A stretch of DNA of 59,736 nucleotides, counting the filler, from Platydemus manokwari (Eukaryota): the NCBI GenBank assembly GCA_037951405.1. It is 6 parts of 6 records of this genome, joined end to end, with 100 filler letters (N's around TTAATTAATTAA, not from the genome) between each part and the next. Parts side by side here need not be neighbours in the genome. Positions count along the whole stretch, not along the records: positions 9,305 to 18,217 come from JBBMOY011330761.1; 5 more parts are not named here. One strand, written 5' to 3'. Each line of letters starts with the position of its first letter. The stretch's first letter is position 1. The position numbers were made by a program, and so were the translations under genes. The notes beneath the pieces were generated by a model. The model was not told the origin of the DNA, did not search any database, and saw nothing but the letters and a program-made list of their open reading frames with translations. Below, one piece after another: positions 9,305 to 18,217 of the stretch.

Positions 9305-9439
9305 GATGTATATTGTAGTTCTAAACTTATTTGTAATTTTATTTTATTTTATTGTTTAAATAGCCCTTGTGTATTGGTGTCATTATTAATAAATTTTTGT
9401 AACAACAAAATTTAGTTCTCATTCATACAAGTGATTATT

Positions 9440-9703
9440 TGTAATTGTGGTAATTAACATAGTTAACAGCTTAAAATAGGATTTGTAGTTTGAGACTGAT
9501 AATTAGGATAAGTAAAATATATCACTGCTGCCACACCTATTGCCATAACTCAATAAGGCTGTGCGAGGTGGAGGAACACCAATACAAGGTAAATTAAGCC
9601 TGTGGCCTCAATCAAGAGCTCATAGGGACTGATTAAGACAGTAGTGGAATCAAATAGAATTAATCTTAGTAAAACAAATAAATCTATAAGGCCCAAACGT
9701 AAC
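9440..9703 (+). mobile_element. Solo-LTR-like insertion in the 3' part of the Polinton integrase
   Basis: TGTAA...AATAAA...GGCCCAAACGTAACA. The same terminal motif recurs at 6155-6169 (reverse) and 47602-47616. Left boundary uncertain; no clean TSD. Confidence 0.45.
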
Positions 9704-10260
9704 ATTAAAACTATTCCATTCTTCTAATTTTTCTTTAATTATTTCAGGGTTTTTACTTGCTTCAATAGGACTAACTACAATAATTGAAAATATTTTATTA
9801 TTTTATTTATTAACACTGCAATAAATTATTATCCCATTTATAACTTCCAGCAGCTGTAAAATGCTTCCACATAATGTTTTTCAAAGTTATAATAAATCTT
9901 TCAGCCTTACCTCTATTTTCAGTATGATATACAATAATTTTATTTTCATCACAAAAAATTTACTTTTAATTCCAGATTTTTCATCAAACCATATATATTT
10001 TGTATTTCTATTGTCTTTTGAGAAAAACTTTTCAAAGGCTTCAACTAAAGTTTCCTATTTTTTATCCTTCAAGGGAATACACCAACCATATCAATAACAA
10101 TTAAAATATTTAAAAATCCTTCATTAGATTTTTGGGCATTATAGCAAAATCACTACAATGAACATTGTCTTCAGAAAAGAATTTTAACTTTAAAAATTTC
10201 TTACTTTTTTATATTCATGATGTAATTCTTTATTTAATAAACCTTCATCGTGTAACTTTA
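9704..10260 (-). pseudogene. Polinton-type retroviral-like (rve) integrase, degraded
   Basis: Pieced across frameshifts: KELHHEYKK; YGWCIPLKDKK*ETLVEAFEKFF; YIWFDEKSG; YHTENRGKAER; TLKNIMWKHFT; VVSPIEASKNP. These follow the Polinton integrase pattern ELH...YAWxxPLKxK...ERFNRTLKxxMWKxFT...P. Confidence 0.85.
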
Positions 10261-10299
10261 AATATATTTAATTTCTTCATCCACATCATAGGAATTTCC

Positions 10300-10942
10300 A
10301 TATATTTTCTTAATTGCTAGGTCTTTTGCTAAAAGTGGTTCAGGTGGATAAACCCTGTCCAAGGATAATTTACCCTTTCATAATACTTTTAATTAAAAAT
10401 CTTTCTAATTTTTCTCTGAATTCTGGATTAGGAATATTATCCATTTGAATATTATCATTTTAACATCGGCAACATGTCTATATTGTAAATCTTATGAAAT
10501 ATAATCAACATCATGTTGGAATACTATTGCATCTATTCTAATTATTGGTTGATGATATTCTTTTGGAATTGGAGGTATACCTAATTTTCCATTTTCATTA
10601 TAATTATTAATAATTTCATCATAATTTTGTAAATCAACTTGAGGATTTGTTCATGGACGACCAGTACTAAATTTATTTTAAAAATTATTATTTGTAATTG
10701 CTTCGTGTATATTTCCACCCTTTTTCAGCTCAAACTCTGGTTACCTTTAAGGATTCCCTGAGTCTCCTCCAATGAATTTAAAACTTCTTAATTTATTACT
10801 TTTATTCATACACGTACTATTCGTACCATTCGAATTCGTATTTTTCATATGAGATTTGGTTTTTTCATGTTTTTGCTTTAATAGATTTAGAAATTTCTTT
10901 TTTACGATCCTGACATAAATATCCCGGAGTAAAAGTAGTCAT
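10300..10942 (-). pseudogene. Zinc-finger plus parvovirus-type phospholipase A2-like (PLA2X) gene, degraded
   Basis: ATG at 10942. CQDRKKEISKSIKAK/HEKTKSH resembles a C2H2 finger, with one C to R change and a frameshift. TGRP*T (cf. GPGT), PIIRIDAIVFQHDVDY...DLQYRHVADVKM (cf. PINxxDxxAxxHDxxY...RHxAD), then IMKGKL. Confidence 0.8.
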
Positions 10943-10969
10943 TTTAAAATATTAAAAATAGCTCTTCAA

Positions 10970-11837
10970 ATGGAGACAAAGAAATAAAAATTTATTGAGG
11001 CAAACGGATAAAGATTACCTGAAAAATCAGAAAATTCTGGAAAATGTTTAATATGTATCGAAGATACAATTATACTTACTTTTTGTAAGTATTATATTTG
11101 TAAAGAATGTAATAAAAAATATAAAAATGATAAATGTCCATAATGTCGACAAAATTTACATGAAAGAATTCTTATATTAGATTGCGTAAATCAAGAACTT
11201 TCAGAATCAATTATTAGAGAATTTCAAAATAAAATTGACTGGAAAGCTATTTCAGAATATCAAAAATTATCTGAAGATTTTATTAAAGAATTTCAAGATA
11301 AAGAAGATTGGGACAATAGTTCAGATTTTCACAAATTATCTGAAGATTTTATTAAAGAATTTCAAGATAAAGTGTATTAGACAAGCATTTTGTGCCGGCA
11401 AGTATTATCGGAGTTCTTTATTCGGGAATTTGAAGACAGTTAATTGGGGAGCTATTTCATATAATCAAAATGTATTTAAAGATTTTATCCGAGAATTCCA
11501 AGATATGATGGATTGGGAACAATTTCACACCGTCAAAAATTATCTGGAGATTTTATTCGAGTATTCAAAGATGAAGTGATGTGGTATTTTATTTCAGATT
11601 TACAAAATTTATCATAATCCATAATTAGAGAATTCCAAGATAAAATATATTGGAAACTTAATTCATCTTGTCAAAAATTATCCGAAGATTTCATCTGAGA
11701 ATTCCAAGATAAGTTGGATTGGTATTGCATTTCGAATCAAAGATGAAGTGAAGCGGTATTTTATTTCATATTGTTAAAATTTATCAGAATCTTTTATTAG
11801 AGAATTCCAAAATATGTCAATTTGGACTTTAAATTAA
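10970..11837 (+). pseudogene. RING-finger plus tryptophan-repeat protein (about 9 x 23-aa repeats), degraded
   Basis: CLICIEDTIILTFCKYYICKECNKKYKNDKCP*CR (11045-11149) has C3HC4 RING spacing with H changed to Y. It is followed by 69-nt repeats translating to about QKLSEDFIREFQDKVDWxxISxx. Several stops and frameshifts; the ORF-track entry 11235..11579 is mostly in the wrong frame. Confidence 0.8.
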
Positions 11838-11936
11838 ATCAAATATTATTTGTCTTGATTTTATGGTTTTTTATTTTTTGTAATTTTCTAATTTTTATAA
11901 TTTCTAAATAATGTGTTTTATTCAATATGAAATCAC

Positions 11937-11996
11937 GTAGTAATAAAGACCAGTCTTTTGAGGGTTAGGGCGTCAAAGACTGGTCTATATAACTAC
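11937..11996. repeat. Imperfect 24/25-bp inverted repeat (hairpin) with an 11-nt loop GGGTTAGGGCG
   Basis: GTAGTAATAAAGACCAGTCTTTTGA pairs with TCAAAGACTGGTCTATATAACTAC. Confidence 0.9.
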
Positions 11997-12756
11997 TATG
12001 TCTTCTGAAGTTGTGATGTATAATTGTGATAGTGAAAATAATGGCAGTGTAATAATAGCAATGCTAATTGTGACTTCGACCTTATATAGACAGTGATAAA
12101 TCATTCGCAGATATTCTCGGCGACTAAATCTAATGTCAGTGAATTTATTATTTTATCGATAGAATTTATTCAATGATGAGAAAAATTCTCTCTGAACTTA
12201 TTTATTTCACAGAGAAAATTTAGTCAATTAAATTTAATCGAGTGATTATATTGTTAGTCACTTTTGTTATTGAATAAAAATTTTTGAATGAAACACAGTT
12301 CACAAACAAGAATATCCATGATGCAAGTCATGTGTTATTAAAAAATATTAACTTAGTTTGAAATTTTCGAATATCAACGGTTGTAACGGAAAAGATTGAA
12401 ATGTTAAACAAAGGATTAATCGAGACGTTATTTTACGATTTGAGAGCTATTAACAGTTACAACTGATAGATAAAAACACAGCAAATATGGGAATTACAAA
12501 AATTAATTTGTTAAAATTGAGAATGTACATAAATATTAATGATAAATAATATGTATTCATCTATTTATCATGAATAAAAACGACAAAACAAAACTCAATA
12601 AAGAAATACCAAAGTGAAATTATTAACTGAATAATATTGGATTGCAATGAAATGCTATCTGAGAGAGAATAAAGAAGGGAAAAAGTCATTTATTCAAAAA
12701 CCACAAAAGAAGCTCTAATTGTGTAACTCAGGAAAATAATATTATTACCATCGGAA

Positions 12757-15625
12757 TCACTGCACAGATTCATTAGATTCATCAGAAACATTGGCAAAAG
12801 CTCTGAAAAATAAAGTATCACTACTAGCTTGAATTTGCAATTGCAAATGAGCCGCTACAAAGAAACTGTTTCCACGCTCATATGGCAATTTAAACAATGT
12901 TTTCCCATCACTAACAGCTGAGAAAACACCTTCACCTTGAATTACCAATAAAATCGATGCCACATGATATTCTTCAGCGACAATGATAAACAAAGGACAA
13001 GCAGTAGCCTTGAATATTTGGCAATGATTATTTTATCAATTAAATGAAATGATAACAAAATTACAAATATTCGTTCTACGGCAAAATCGGATATCGGAGG
13101 TGCAAACAAATCGCACGTAATCATATGAGATAATGTTATCATTCTTTTTGGTTTGAATTTCATATTTTCCTCCGAAAATGAAGAATAATTCACCATACTG
13201 ATCAAGGTTTCAATATCCTTATATTTTGGTGTGAGACCTGCTCTGATTACATTGTCAGAACAAGCCATACACTCGATAGCTGTTCCAGAAATGTAAGCAT
13301 GAGGAAGGTTTTCCTGAGAAAATTATTCAATTACCAATCCGCTATTCAAAACTTTACCGATAGAAAAAGTGCTTCGCCTGGTTGTAATACAACTTTATTT
13401 AAAATAAACACCGAAAAAAGCCCAATATCATTGGGATATTGTTGATTCAGACGTAAAAACAACTCAGCTAAGTGAGCATGTTTTTCAGATAAATATTCAA
13501 CAGCTTTACCATTTTGGAAATCCTCAACTAAACTGGTGACAGCTTTTACAATCTGTGAAAATGTAATTTAATTGGATTTTCATTAAAGATGTTCATTATT
13601 ACCATATCAGGACCGGATAACATTAGAGTTTTATAACACACTTTTAATGCTGACACTTTCTGTTCATCACTAATAAGATTCAAATAACCTTTCTTGATAT
13701 CGCCGATTAATTCTCCTAATTGTGGAATTGCTATAATTAATTATTCAATCATTTTAATGTTACAAATCACAATTCATAAACATATGCTAATGATATTCAA
13801 TCAAATAACTCGTGATTTGTTTTTATTAGCCCGAGGATAAAACTAGATATTAGCAATAGAAAAATATAAATAAATATAAACATGGTTTTCCTATTGAAAT
13901 TATTCATCATAAATTAGATAATTGTTAAAAAGACAATCAGCAGAACCTTTCAAAATTATCAATCAACAAACCATTCTATTATATCTTATTAATTTAAAAT
14001 GGAGATTATTTCCATTAAATGTAGAAATTATCAATTGGTTTTCTGAAAACAAAGTATATATTATAATGCAACAGGAATAAATATATTTAAACAAACATTC
14101 TATAAATAAAGATATAAAATCTAGATTAGATTTAATTCATTTTTGTTAAATTTTATAAAATAGATTATTAATAAAATAAAATTGCGAAATATCAATACTA
14201 TAGTGGCAATAATAATTTGGCGATTGACAATTCCAATATGTGGTCCACCATTTCTCCGATTTTACAGTAGTTTTGAATAGGTCATAGAATCGATCATTCT
14301 GGAATATTCTTATTGGTGAATTCGAACTCAATCCAATTTCACTCAACCTAATTATGTCTTACCACTTATGATTAATACCTGTTAAAATTTGATTCAGCAT
14401 TACCAAGCTACTCAAAAACAAAAACTGTTATTAAAATTTCCGAAATTAAAGAAATTCATCAAAATTCCATTGTATATTCTTAAATAATGTCTGGATTCAC
14501 TTACTTTGTATTGCATTAAAAATACAAACAACCAATAAAGTACAGAAATCGAAGTCTATAAATATCCAATCAAATTCGAGGCACACATTCTCAATAATCA
14601 CGACAGTCAATAATGATGACACAATTTACATTTTCTATTAATTATATCTGACTGAGAAAATCATGTCATTTCAATATTTAAAACTTATTCAAAAGAATAT
14701 AAATACATATTATGGACACTTAATAATGACTACGAGTTTGTTATAATCGATTACCTGTGAAATAAATATTTATTGATTATAGACATATGAACATATATTG
14801 ACGACGAAATAAATTTTAAATAAATATGCAATCCCCAAGCCATGAATTACGAAATTATATAAATAACTTACATAATCCAACATCAAAATAAACAAATATT
14901 GATGAAATAAATTAATTTTTTCGATAAGTAAATCGTAAGTCTTTTATAAAAGTAATTTTATGTAAAAGTTTAACTTATTAATAAAATAATATTCCTTTAA
15001 TTTATGATTGATTAATTAAGCTTACAATGAATAAAAAACGTGATTTCATCTAATTTCCGAAAACCAGCCAAGGCTTCAAAATGTGTTAATGCAATTGCAA
15101 GTTCAGGTTTGTGATTGGGATCTTTATAAATATCTGGAGCACATTTGTGTAAAAATTCGGCTTCTTTCTGTTAATTTTTGTTTAAAAGGAATAGTCTCAT
15201 CTTATTAAATCACCTTATTCGGATGAATTTGAATAGATAAAGCAGTGTTTACTGAGAGTACTTTCAACAAAAACGGTAAATCACAGCCAAATTCCGCAAC
15301 AGATGCATCACCCAAAACATCAGGATTTTCAGTAATTAAACTTAATAAATTCTTTTGACTTAATTGTATAATTGAAGGTCCAGAGACATGAGTTCCAAGC
15401 CAAAGCTAAACAAATTTGTCAAATAAAATTGTAGAGACAATTAATATCCACCTCTGCATAAGGTAAGGATTCATTAAAATGTGACTTTTCGTTAGCAACT
15501 AGTAAGTTATAAACTTCACTTTCAGTACCGTATTTTCCCCAAGCGTAGTTCTGGACGGCATACTTTAACTTGTACACTAAAATTTATAACAAATATTGTA
15601 AAAAGTGGATAACCAAAATTTTACT
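12757..15625 (-). CDS. MPI: Mannose-6-phosphate isomerase (type I PMI). Coding exons: 15625, 15576-15452, 15405-15214, 15167-15026, 13730-13603, 13552-13358, 13313-13065, 13008-12757; 427 aa
   Basis: Motifs QNYAWGK, PYAELWLGTH, LPFLLKVLSVNTALSIQIHPNK, YKDPNHKPELAIALTHFEALAGFR, QYPNDIG, LQPGEALFL, PHAYISG, ECMACSDNVIRAGLTPK. All introns are GT-AG and in phase (48, 46, 46, 1295, 50, 44, 56 nt); spliced length 1284 nt. The first exon is less certain. Confidence 0.96.
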
Positions 15626-17549
15626 TTAAACTGGACAATAAGTAAAATAAAAATGCTAATTTTTGATGATACATATAAACAAATATTTATATTTATTAAG
15701 TTTAGATAAAATTAGTTTGATTTTTTTTTTATTTTTAACTAATTATATTAATTAGTTTTGTGATTCACAACTTTGGTATTTTATTCACAGAAATGATATT
15801 TTTATAATTTCAAGAATTTCAAAAATAATAAATCAGCTGTATAATATAATTATTGTATTTTCCCTTTTTACTTAGCTTAAACTTCTTAAAATGTTTACAT
15901 ACTCTTGTATTGAAATCACCTCCTATAACATAATTTTTAATAATGAAATAGGAAATTGAATTTATTTTTGCGAAATTTGAAATTTTTATACTTTGGCTGC
16001 ATATCAGCTATAAATAAATATTGGGGAATTGGTAGGATCCAAGTGGGTTAGATGAATCACTAAAGTTGTGGCGTAGAATAATGCTTCTATAATAATGCAT
16101 TACGGACCTCTTTCACTCAAATCAAACCATTTTTATTTGTATAGACGGAAACATTGGAAGACTATATGCAGATAAGGAAATAATAAAATACTTTAAAATA
16201 AATATCCAGATAATATTTTTCTGATTTATGAGCATACAATTTATAAATTTGTGACGTTTCGTTCAACTAAAATTTATATAATAATTTGTTATAATTTGTG
16301 CCCTGAGTGAAAGGCTTCACTGGTTGATATACCGTGCCAATTTATTTTCTGTGTATTCCATTTGTTGAGTGAGATTAAATTCTGCAAAAAGACAAGATAG
16401 ATTACACCTTGGAACCCTTGTTTTGGCACTTTGAACATTTACATGCCTACACGACCATACAGGCATGGTAATCGGCCAATTACAATGAAGCTAGATAGTA
16501 AATTACAATCGAGAAAAAGGGCATAACTACACAAAACACACATCTAGGGATTGACCAATTCCATTCATGTAAAAACCTAAATACTCAATAAAAATACAGA
16601 AAGACAAATACCAAATCAAATTGTAGTACATCATTACACAGAGAGGTATACACAGATTGCGAGTATAAAAAGCAATGTAAAAATAGACAACTACCAGTTG
16701 GAAGCCAGATTTGGTGAAATCATTGTGCTTGTATTGATTATTGAAGTTTTTCGTTAGTTTTTTAGTTGTATATTGACTAATATATATAAGCTGGAGTCAG
16801 AAGTTTGTTATTTATACTCCAACACATGCGTCATGGCTCTATTTTTTAGAAACATTCAATGCTTATTATTTTGTGTTACTATTTTTAATATCTTTTGTTG
16901 TTATTATATTTTGCACACAACGTGATTTCTATGTTTAGATTTTATTTGAAATTTTTCTTATGACCTTTTAATTTTTAATTTTGGTATGTTTAAAAAAATT
17001 TTAAAGAATTTTAAGTTTTCTAAGCCTGTGTTTGTAATATCTCAAAAGTTTTTTGGTGCTTATTTTTGTAAATTTTAATAATGAATTTTATTATTTTTCA
17101 AGGTGATTTGGACTAAGATGATTCCCCGCAAAGGTATAAAAGTATAATTGGTAAAACAAAAGTAACATTTTTTATTAACCGGAAAATATTATGGTAATTT
17201 TCTTTATGTAACTCATTTTATTTATATAAATATGAATGATATATATGACATGATATAAATAATGTATATAAATGATAAAAATTTACAATGAAATTGAAAA
17301 TACAGTTTTCCAAATAAAATGAATTACAAAATGATAATGACCATAACATTTTTCGTTTATATTTATTTATTTATAAATTTAAAATTTATTTATTAATTTA
17401 AAAATTAACTTCAAAGGGAAACTATGAAATTAATTTAACTATAATAAAAATATTATAAATAATAATAATTACCTGACAATAATTTAAAGATCAAATCAGG
17501 TTCAAATTATATTAAGAAAAAGTTTCTGAATATTTCCTCCTGAATGACT

Positions 17550-17635
17550 CACTCAGTAATTTAGTATAGCTATTAGTTAGACAGTTCGTTATTCAAAAGT
17601 CAAAGGACGTGGTTTTACTTCCCACATTCTCAGCA
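17550..17635 (+). mobile_element. Possible degraded tRNA-derived SINE head
   Basis: A-box-like TAGCTATTAGTTAGA and B-box-like GTGGTTTTACTTCCC at tRNA-like spacing; no intact cloverleaf. Confidence 0.25.
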
Positions 17636-18144
17636 TATGCCCAGTTTTGTTTGACAATCGTGAAGTAATTTCATTTAATAAAAACTTATTTATGAACGTA
17701 TGTTCAATATAAATATTCGAATTACTTGAGGCACGAAATAACTCATACATTGCGAGGAAGCAACTTTATCAGAAGCTTATCTTTGAAGTTGGATGGTAGA
17801 GAAAAATTACAATATTTTCTTTATCATAATTATATATTTATAATATGGGTTTGCCTTTGATTTTGAATTCATTCATTTTTTAAGTAATAGTTAAATAATA
17901 TCATCTCGTTTGGTTCATTTTATTATCATAGTTGCTAACATAATAGTTAAAAATTCATTGGCATTTCACCAACTTTTAGTTTTCATATAAGTTTGATAAT
18001 ATCAAAAAGTCATTTGTCAACGATATCAAAGGCAATGTAATTGAGTAACAATGATGCCAACAAGGATTCACTGAAATTCATAGGATATAGTTTAGTAATT
18101 TGTATAAAATAATTGTCATTAGTTTTTATGAAATAGTTTTAATA

Positions 18145-18217
18145 TTAGGTTGTCCCATATGAAATGTCCGATTTTCATGCACATATTTGAAGAAGCATAA
18201 CTCATAAGAAAATATTT
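18145..18217 (+). mobile_element. Mariner-like terminal inverted repeat truncated by the contig end
   Basis: TA|TTAGGTTGTCCCATATGAAATGTCCG resembles mariner TIR starts (TTAGGTTG...). Confidence 0.55.

What the first reader, a model, noticed from the sequence alone, without database searches (positions are those of the whole stretch)
10970..11837. Polinton cargo gene: RING E3-ligase domain fused to a tryptophan-repeat array
Seen: a RING-spaced Cys motif followed by about nine 23-aa repeats (LSEDFIREFQDKVDW-like), lying between the PLA2/integrase region and the element terminus. Known: similar repeats define the entomopoxvirus tryptophan-repeat gene family, and neither domain is a core Polinton gene. 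Inference: a virus-encoded ubiquitin ligase with a repeat substrate-binding module, possibly countering host defence and pointing to gene exchange with large DNA viruses. This copy is pseudogenised, and I cannot confirm novelty without a search.
Basis: partly seen in the sequence, partly recalled or inferred. Interest (0 to 1): 0.7.

Follow-up and report, generated by a model that had tools for sequence, protein, structure and literature searches.

The report
Decayed Maverick RING tryptophan-repeat ligase gene
This is a broken copy of a gene carried by a whole family of virus-like mobile elements (Mavericks/Polintons) in an animal genome; it joins a RING zinc finger to a stack of tryptophan repeats known from large viruses and likely worked as a ubiquitin ligase that tagged proteins picked out by those repeats.

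Summary
Observation confirmed. 10970-11837 is a decayed gene: a C3HC4 RING, then nine 23-aa tryptophan repeats plus a partial one. It is not a one-off capture but a fixed gene of a Maverick family with at least 150 matches in this animal genome. It sits between the divergent PLA2/integrase block and the packaging ATPase; the neighbouring terminus in this copy results from an internal deletion. RING and repeats share one stop-free frame in 10 of 52 copies, and shared variation shows purifying selection as strong as on the ATPase. The repeats fold as a helical solenoid matching entomopoxvirus Trp-repeat proteins, but equally jumbo-phage and giant-virus ones, so the donor is open. Best reading (0.65): a viral E3 ligase with a repeat substrate receptor; activity and targets are untested. 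RING ligases in Polinton-like viruses and an F-box+Trp-repeat gene are in print, and 4 of 339 database relatives also carry a RING. I found no description of this fusion in a Maverick. The scan noted the repeat family before, in phages only. New variant of a known kind; interest 0.5.

The parts
10970..11837 (+). Pseudogenised RING + tryptophan-repeat gene of a Maverick/Polinton family
11045..11149 (+). C3HC4 RING finger (7 of 8 ligand positions kept here; one stop inside)
11198..11837 (+). Array of nine 23-aa (69-nt) Trp repeats plus a partial unit; predicted helical solenoid in the open copy
10390..10942 (-). Decayed zinc-finger + PLA2-like gene (approximate 3' end), head-to-head with the RING gene, ATGs 27 nt apart
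   Evidence: family fragment PF08398 E=0.012
9704..10330 (-). Decayed rve integrase, cut at 9704 (approximate 5' end)
   Evidence: family fragment PF00665 E=8.4e-6
11855..11997 (.). Terminal inverted repeat of the element, ending ACTACT (AGTAGT on the minus strand); joined to the gene by an internal deletion
11937..11997 (.). Fold-back hairpin at the very end of the terminal repeat
   Evidence: z = -7.5, 0 of 200 shuffles fold as well
9305..9704 (.). Unrelated high-copy repeat that truncates the integrase (not part of the Maverick)
   Evidence: 1506 candidates, 40 of 40 scored match; the 39 other places at 84-88%

Best explanation
This is a dead copy of a conserved accessory gene of a Maverick (Polinton/adintovirus-type) family, whose product likely acted as a single-chain viral E3 ubiquitin ligase: the N-terminal C3HC4 RING would bind a host E2-ubiquitin and the predicted helical stack of tryptophan repeats would bind the substrate. 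Shown: fusion in one frame, fixed place at the head of the ATPase-capsid-protease block, purifying selection while the family was active, neutral decay after insertion, and loss of the downstream half in this copy. Predicted: the solenoid fold. Inferred: E2 binding, ubiquitin transfer, and substrate binding by the variable positions flanking the Trp. Targets are unknown; host antiviral or silencing factors are the default guess by analogy to other viral RING ligases.
For: Linkage: of 39 loci fetched around hits, 38 have the repeats, 35 the RING, 34 both, 30 the ATPase, 30 PLA2/integrase, 39 some element gene. L216 holds pPolB N-terminal half, integrase, PLA2, RING-Trp and ATPase; L222 holds RING-Trp, ATPase, major and minor capsid and protease-like pieces. 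Fusion: RING core and first repeat in one stop-free frame in 10 of 52 copies; one full 278-aa frame. Selection over codons 1-121 in 52 copies: variants shared by at least 20% of copies at 7 of 25 four-fold sites versus 23 of 239 zero-fold sites (p=0.013), as in the ATPase (13 of 46 versus 40 of 414, p=0.0008); rare variants are flat across site classes (0.063/0.063/0.068). The RING is the more constrained part (shared zero-fold variants 6 of 112 versus 14 of 91 in repeats, p=0.03). RING: 8 of 8 ligands in the open copy; best PDB sequence matches are RING proteins, mostly E3s (CGRRF1 E=4e-5, RNF141, RNF4). The hydrophobic residue of loop 1, the Pro and the Arg after the last Cys (E2-contact and 'linchpin' roles recalled, not from a call) are kept in 32 of 42, 29 of 38 and 31 of 40 copies. 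Repeats: pLDDT 94-99 over most of the array; Foldseek matches MSV027, AMV029 and other Trp-repeat proteins at E=1e-21 to 1e-23. Recurrent coupling to ubiquitin modules: 4 of 339 fetched relatives carry a RING, three C-terminal and one N-terminal; AMV254 is reported as F-box plus Trp repeats (PMC7728225, passage).
Against: No activity data. The RING was not modelled with confidence (pLDDT about 40-60). Selection on the RING alone is not significant (2 of 9 versus 6 of 112, p=0.11). Ligand retention (76-92% per site) is only slightly above the 76% mean of residues 20-75. No study shows that any Trp-repeat protein binds a protein; 166 of 339 relatives carry a phage-type C-terminal motif, so the repeat also works where there is no ubiquitin. 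The putative binding face is less diverse here (1.9-2.5 bits over 30 units from 19 copies) than in database relatives (2.6-3.9 bits over 1120 units), and pN 0.37 versus pS 0.33 fits relaxed as well as diversifying selection. The F-box-like starts of three relatives rest on my motif pattern; Pfam found nothing in the two that were scanned at E 0.05.
Confidence: 0.65

Rival explanations
1. Non-catalytic scaffold or assembly factor: the RING serves dimerisation or zinc-dependent folding and the repeats bind the element's own packaging or capsid proteins.
For: The gene heads the co-oriented ATPase-capsid-protease block in nearly all copies. The repeat face is fairly uniform within the family. Jumbo phages use the repeat without ubiquitin.
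Against: E2-face residues are retained. No repeat or RING match in eight stretches around other PF03175/PF08398 hits of this genome, including a capsid-bearing element, so it is not a general assembly part. RING and F-box partners recur.
Confidence: 0.15
2. Ligase aimed at a co-infecting large DNA virus (helper or competitor) rather than the host, as in a virophage-like life style; both domains were taken from such a virus.
For: Closest RING relatives are unnamed metagenomic proteins with ankyrin or MORN repeats (E 1.6e-6 to 0.6); Atlas leads under 0.9 point to Nucleocytoviricota and Preplasmiviricota clusters. PLVs are reported in entomopoxvirus occlusion bodies with gene exchange (PMC11296320, passages).
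Against: No large DNA virus is known for this host in my data. The RING relationships are weak. That paper's text and supplement hold no tryptophan-repeat mention.
Confidence: 0.12
3. Neutral passenger or captured host gene piece with no function for the element.
For: All but one of the inspected copies are broken. A simple dN/dS of 0.6 was no lower than one frame-shifted control.
Against: Shared-variant test equals the ATPase. Fixed position, no introns, and no hit outside elements in 39 of 39 loci.
Confidence: 0.05

Closest known systems
Entomopoxvirus tryptophan repeat gene family (MSV027, MSV205, AMV029; AMV254 with F-box)
   Same: 23-residue Trp repeat; structural match E 1e-18 to 1e-23 at 36-41% identity, up to 56% for shorter members. 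AMV254 couples the repeat to a ubiquitin-ligase module (PMC7728225, passage).
   Different: Here the module is a RING (would be a complete ligase) rather than an F-box adaptor; single-copy gene of a small integrating element instead of a multigene family of a large virus.
Jumbo-phage Trp-repeat proteins (phrog_3532; phage G gp558-563, Listeria phage LPJP1, Bacillus phage BpSp)
   Same: Highest sequence identity to the repeats (51-60% in named phages; PHROG E=5.6e-72); the same variable positions.
   Different: No RING in 114 of 114 repeat ORFs from 97 viral-contig loci; different C-terminal domain; 30 or more paralogous places per genome in three phages.
E3 ubiquitin ligase genes of Polinton-like viruses and virophages
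   Same: 61 genomes with a predicted E3 ligase (PMC7805220, passage); same proposed counter-defence role.
   Different: Supplement has no 'tryptophan' or core repeat motif; the RING example seen is a 98-aa protein; hosts are protists.
Poxvirus p28/N1R (KilA-N + RING) and ankyrin/F-box proteins
   Same: Viral RING fused to a targeting domain shared with phages; repeat solenoid as substrate receptor (PMC3185573, passages).
   Different: Different partner domain and order; those are tested ligases, this one is not.
Unnamed metagenomic Trp-repeat + RING proteins P0251, P0273, P0283 (RING last) and P0333 (RING first)
   Same: Same two domains in one chain.
   Different: Three have the opposite order; RINGs differ in type; genomic context could not be seen; all singletons without names.

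Membership tests
C3HC4 RING finger | C-x2-C-x(9-39)-C-x(1-3)-H-x(2-3)-C-x2-C-x(4-48)-C-x2-C spacing (pattern recalled) | tested here: met
   8 of 8 in the open copy, 7 of 8 in the window copy; all eight kept in 9 of 28 fully aligned copies
C3HC4 RING finger | Pfam RING model over curated cut-off | tested here: met
   PF13920 30.6 bits versus cut-off 27 for the open copy; 24.3 for the window copy
RING E3 ligase | Cross-brace fold with E2-binding surface | tested here: inconclusive
   RING pLDDT about 40-60; E2-face residues kept in 76-78% of aligned copies
RING E3 ligase | E2-dependent ubiquitin transfer | not testable with these tools
   needs an assay
Tryptophan repeat gene family | Tandem 23-residue units with a fixed Trp | tested here: met
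   (nine units in the open copy, eight complete)
Tryptophan repeat gene family | Similarity to named members | tested here: met
   Foldseek ranks 3, 5, 7, 8 are entomopoxvirus proteins, three of them named members; the original definition (MSEV genome paper) was not held
Maverick/Polinton | Terminal inverted repeats ending in AGTAGT (motif recalled) | tested here: met
   window end 11997; both ends inverted in L121
Maverick/Polinton | 6-bp target-site duplication | tested here: met
   5 of 6 bases match at L121; not testable for the window copy, whose left end is lost
Maverick/Polinton | rve integrase | tested here: met
   PF00665 E=8.4e-6, 26.4 bits, under cut-off 32.6, in a frameshifted copy
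Maverick/Polinton | Protein-primed family B polymerase | tested here: inconclusive
   N-terminal half recognised from recall, no Pfam hit; PF03175 hit over cut-off about 500 nt downstream of a related fragment on C1831834; YxDTDS motif in L218; no single copy with RING gene and full polymerase seen
Maverick/Polinton | A32-type packaging ATPase and double jelly-roll capsid | tested here: met
   PF04665 26.6 bits (cut-off 22.8) and PF21738 30.3 bits (cut-off 27)
Maverick/Polinton | Adenain-type protease | tested here: inconclusive
   label from recalled motifs; no Pfam hit
Alpha adintovirus virion module | PLA2X gene (PMC8502044, passage) | tested here: inconclusive
   PF08398 E=0.012, under cut-off; pX-like tail not examined

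The most novel reading that the evidence does not exclude
The tryptophan repeat is a general viral substrate receptor that has been wired to the ubiquitin system several times independently (RING first, RING last, F-box). This Maverick family took it from a large DNA virus and used a variable-length repeat array (about 1 to 10 or more units between copies) as a retargetable degrader, possibly against that large virus itself: the first such ligase in an animal Polinton.
Probability: 0.15. Interest if true: 0.8.

Novelty: new variant of a known kind. Interest (0 to 1): 0.5.

Why it matters
The tryptophan repeat family is named in entomopoxviruses, jumbo phages and giant viruses but has no known function. 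A fixed, selected fusion to a RING gives a direct functional handle: if it ubiquitinates, the repeats are substrate receptors and their targets can be trapped. It also adds evidence that animal Mavericks carried host-manipulating accessory genes shared with large DNA viruses, as true viruses do. Limits: the window copy is dead, the family is old (71-84% identity between copies), E3 genes in Polinton-like viruses are already reported, and nothing here shows activity.

Tried and rejected
1) Nei-Gojobori dN/dS of 0.60 for codons 1-100: rejected as evidence, because a frame-shifted control gave 0.62 and the 67 loci included duplicates; replaced by the shared-versus-rare variant test on 52 distinct contigs. 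The codon trees gave no usable omega and are nearly star-shaped (internal branches 9% of length). 2) Single-sequence fold was poor (mean pLDDT 65.5); the alignment-based fold resolved only the repeats. 3) No solved fold match: Foldseek none at E 0.001; VIA-align best Z 6.2, rmsd 6.1 over 209 residues, generic helical repeats; this does not show a new fold. 4) Complex prediction of the RING with a host E2: no verdict, not folded. 5) No RNA holder listed; the one run laid matches the window without differences in its longest pieces but may be the source sample. 6) IMG/VR scan with the RING-junction alignment: 114 pattern matches, none a relative; no context found for P0251 or P0333. 7) A spider protein (P0088) has among the most similar repeats (68.5%); my idea that its N-terminus is a Maverick capsid was not supported; only a weak motif match, E=0.49. 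8) Array length: RING-to-ATPase spacing is 360-994 nt in 22 copies but not in multiples of 69, so array turnover cannot be told from post-insertion deletion. 9) A repeat phylogeny for the donor was not attempted: tandem arrays homogenise and identities to phage, animal-genome and entomopoxvirus relatives overlap. 10) Literature searches that found no RING-Trp-repeat fusion in a Polinton; supplements searched (that of PMC8502044 was cut when stored). Repbase and subscription papers could not be searched.

Full report
Setting. The window is a pack of six stretches; the finding lies in 9305-18217, which is contig C1330761 of a 911-Mb, AT-rich genome in 1.99 million contigs. Host genes in the window and neighbouring loci (amiloride-sensitive channel, rhodopsin-type receptor, phosphomannose isomerase) mark an animal.

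Observation. From ATG 10970 the + strand reads a C3HC4 RING at 11045-11149 and then 23-residue repeats. Pfam gives RING models at E=2.7e-5. A 69-nt repeat family spans about 11190-11835, with nine anchors and one partial unit. The copy has seven internal stops, three frame changes and one substituted ligand position.

Family. A protein search of the own genome scored 150 of 639 candidates and all 150 matched; this is a lower bound. The window copy is 71-84% identical to 45 other copies over its first 290 nt (46 of 52 contigs aligned, itself included), so the family is old. One copy (L012) has an open 278-aa frame with RING and nine repeats. RING core and first repeat lie in one stop-free frame in 10 of 52 copies.

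Context. I fetched 40 stretches (39 contigs, picked from the hits for long flanks) and mapped recurring ORFs. Of 39 loci, 38 have repeats, 35 the RING, 34 both, 30 the ATPase, 30 PLA2 or integrase, and 39 some element gene; the query fragments came from these same loci. The order is: integrase and zinc-finger/PLA2 on one strand, head-to-head with RING-Trp, ATPase, an unknown ORF, major capsid, minor capsid and protease-like gene on the other. L216 adds the polymerase N-terminal half on the same contig. Pfam supports ATPase and capsid over cut-off, integrase and PLA2 under it; polymerase and protease labels rest partly on recalled motifs.

The window copy. Homology to other copies runs from 9704 to about 11856 and then jumps to the terminal inverted repeat, 11855-11997, which ends in ACTACT. 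The ATPase-to-protease half is deleted, and a separate high-copy repeat cuts the integrase at 9704. The same terminus bounds both ends of a 1.2-kb derivative with a 6-bp target duplication matching at 5 of 6 bases (L121). So the gene is central in the element, not terminal.

Selection. Over codons 1-121 in 52 distinct copies, variants shared by at least 20% of copies fall on 7 of 25 four-fold sites but 23 of 239 zero-fold sites (p=0.013). The ATPase gives 13 of 46 and 40 of 414 (p=0.0008). Rare variants are flat across site classes. This is purifying selection in the active lineages followed by neutral decay. For the RING alone the test is not significant (p=0.11). A plain dN/dS was uninformative.

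The repeat. With a 45-sequence alignment the array folds confidently as two short helices per unit; the RING does not. Foldseek matches entomopoxvirus Trp-repeat proteins, phage G proteins, and pithovirus, marseillevirus and Megaviridae proteins (64 matches at E 0.001). No solved fold matches. By sequence the nearest named relatives are jumbo-phage proteins (26 phage records) and a spider gene model. Positions flanking the Trp and the following Ile-Ser vary most, in 30 units from 19 copies and more strongly in 1120 database units; this agrees with an earlier scan note on phage members. Spacing from RING to ATPase is 360-994 nt in 22 copies, about 1 to 10 repeats.

The RING and other fusions. 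The best PDB sequence matches are RING proteins, mostly E3 ligases. Seven longer database proteins matched the RING profile weakly, three with ankyrin or MORN repeats; Atlas leads, all under 0.9, point to large-virus and Preplasmiviricota clusters. Of 339 fetched repeat relatives, four carry a RING: three at the end, one at the start. None of 114 repeat ORFs in 97 viral-contig loci does. Three relatives start with an F-box-like motif by my pattern; Pfam did not confirm the two scanned at E 0.05.

Mechanism. Most likely (0.65) the RING would engage a host E2-ubiquitin while the solenoid's variable face would hold a substrate, giving a single-chain viral ligase. Fusion, position, selection and decay are shown; the fold is predicted; E2 binding, catalysis and targets are inferred. 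Rivals: a non-catalytic assembly factor (0.15), a ligase aimed at a co-infecting large virus (0.12), a neutral passenger (0.05).

Literature (passages only unless stated). PMC7728225: AMV254 is a Trp-repeat protein with an F-box. PMC7805220: 61 PLV or virophage genomes have a predicted E3; its supplement has no Trp-repeat term. PMC8502044: PLA2X marks Alpha adintovirus modules; no tryptophan mention in text or the stored, cut supplement. PMC11296320: PLVs exchange genes with entomopoxviruses; abstract, passages and supplement search show no Trp repeat. PMC3185573: p28 is a KilA-N + RING ligase. PMC6540820: two ant endogenous elements resemble the Trp-repeat gene. PMC12484599, PMC6669658 and PMC11139710 mention the family without a function. 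PMC11131425, 10.64898/2026.10.13.758929, 10.1101/2025.02.07.637071 and 10.64898/2026.06.19.733378 have no tryptophan mention in their main text; their supplements were not seen (bioRxiv ones are closed). The MSEV genome paper was not held. Nine searches found no RING-Trp-repeat gene in a Polinton; Repbase and subscription journals were out of reach. The scan's notes hold the repeat family from phages only.

Verdict. New variant of a known kind; interest 0.5.

Noticed in passing
window 11937-11997; L119, L121: The element's terminal repeat ends in a strong fold-back hairpin with AGTAG-type motifs at both arms (z = -7.5); other copies have a longer spacer. May bear on how Maverick ends prime replication.
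   Followed up: partly
window 10942 and 10970: The PLA2-like gene and the RING-Trp gene start head-to-head only 27 nt apart, leaving almost no room for a shared promoter.
   Followed up: no
window 9305-9704: A separate high-copy repeat (1506 candidates; scored copies 84-88% identical) cuts the integrase.
   Followed up: partly
window about 12757-15300, minus strand: Exons of a host phosphomannose isomerase gene; the element lies downstream of it.
   Followed up: partly
L232:8348-10000 and L233:1-10000 (G000 C444443): An apparently intact Polinton-like element of different composition with a 940-aa PF03175 frame and ATPase-, capsid- and protease-like ORFs (labels by eye); no RING-Trp gene in the 20 kb fetched.
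   Followed up: partly
L034:1438-2985, L055:1301-2941: Two related, intronless 516- and 547-aa host-type RING ORFs lie beside element copies; probably an expanded host family.
   Followed up: no
L181-L190: The genome holds many intronless E2 ubiquitin-conjugating ORFs (111 PF00179 matches, over 20 near full length).
   Followed up: no
L050:3051-4333; L034; L220: Tandem duplication of the zinc-finger/RING/repeat block in one copy and inverted repeat-array fragments in two others.
   Followed up: no
P0088, P0184 (database proteins): Trp-repeat gene models in a spider and a beetle assembly; may be further element-borne copies, context not seen.
   Followed up: partly
L235:798-3548: A 917-aa open frame with a PLA2-like domain, possibly a parvovirus-type capsid gene.
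   Followed up: no
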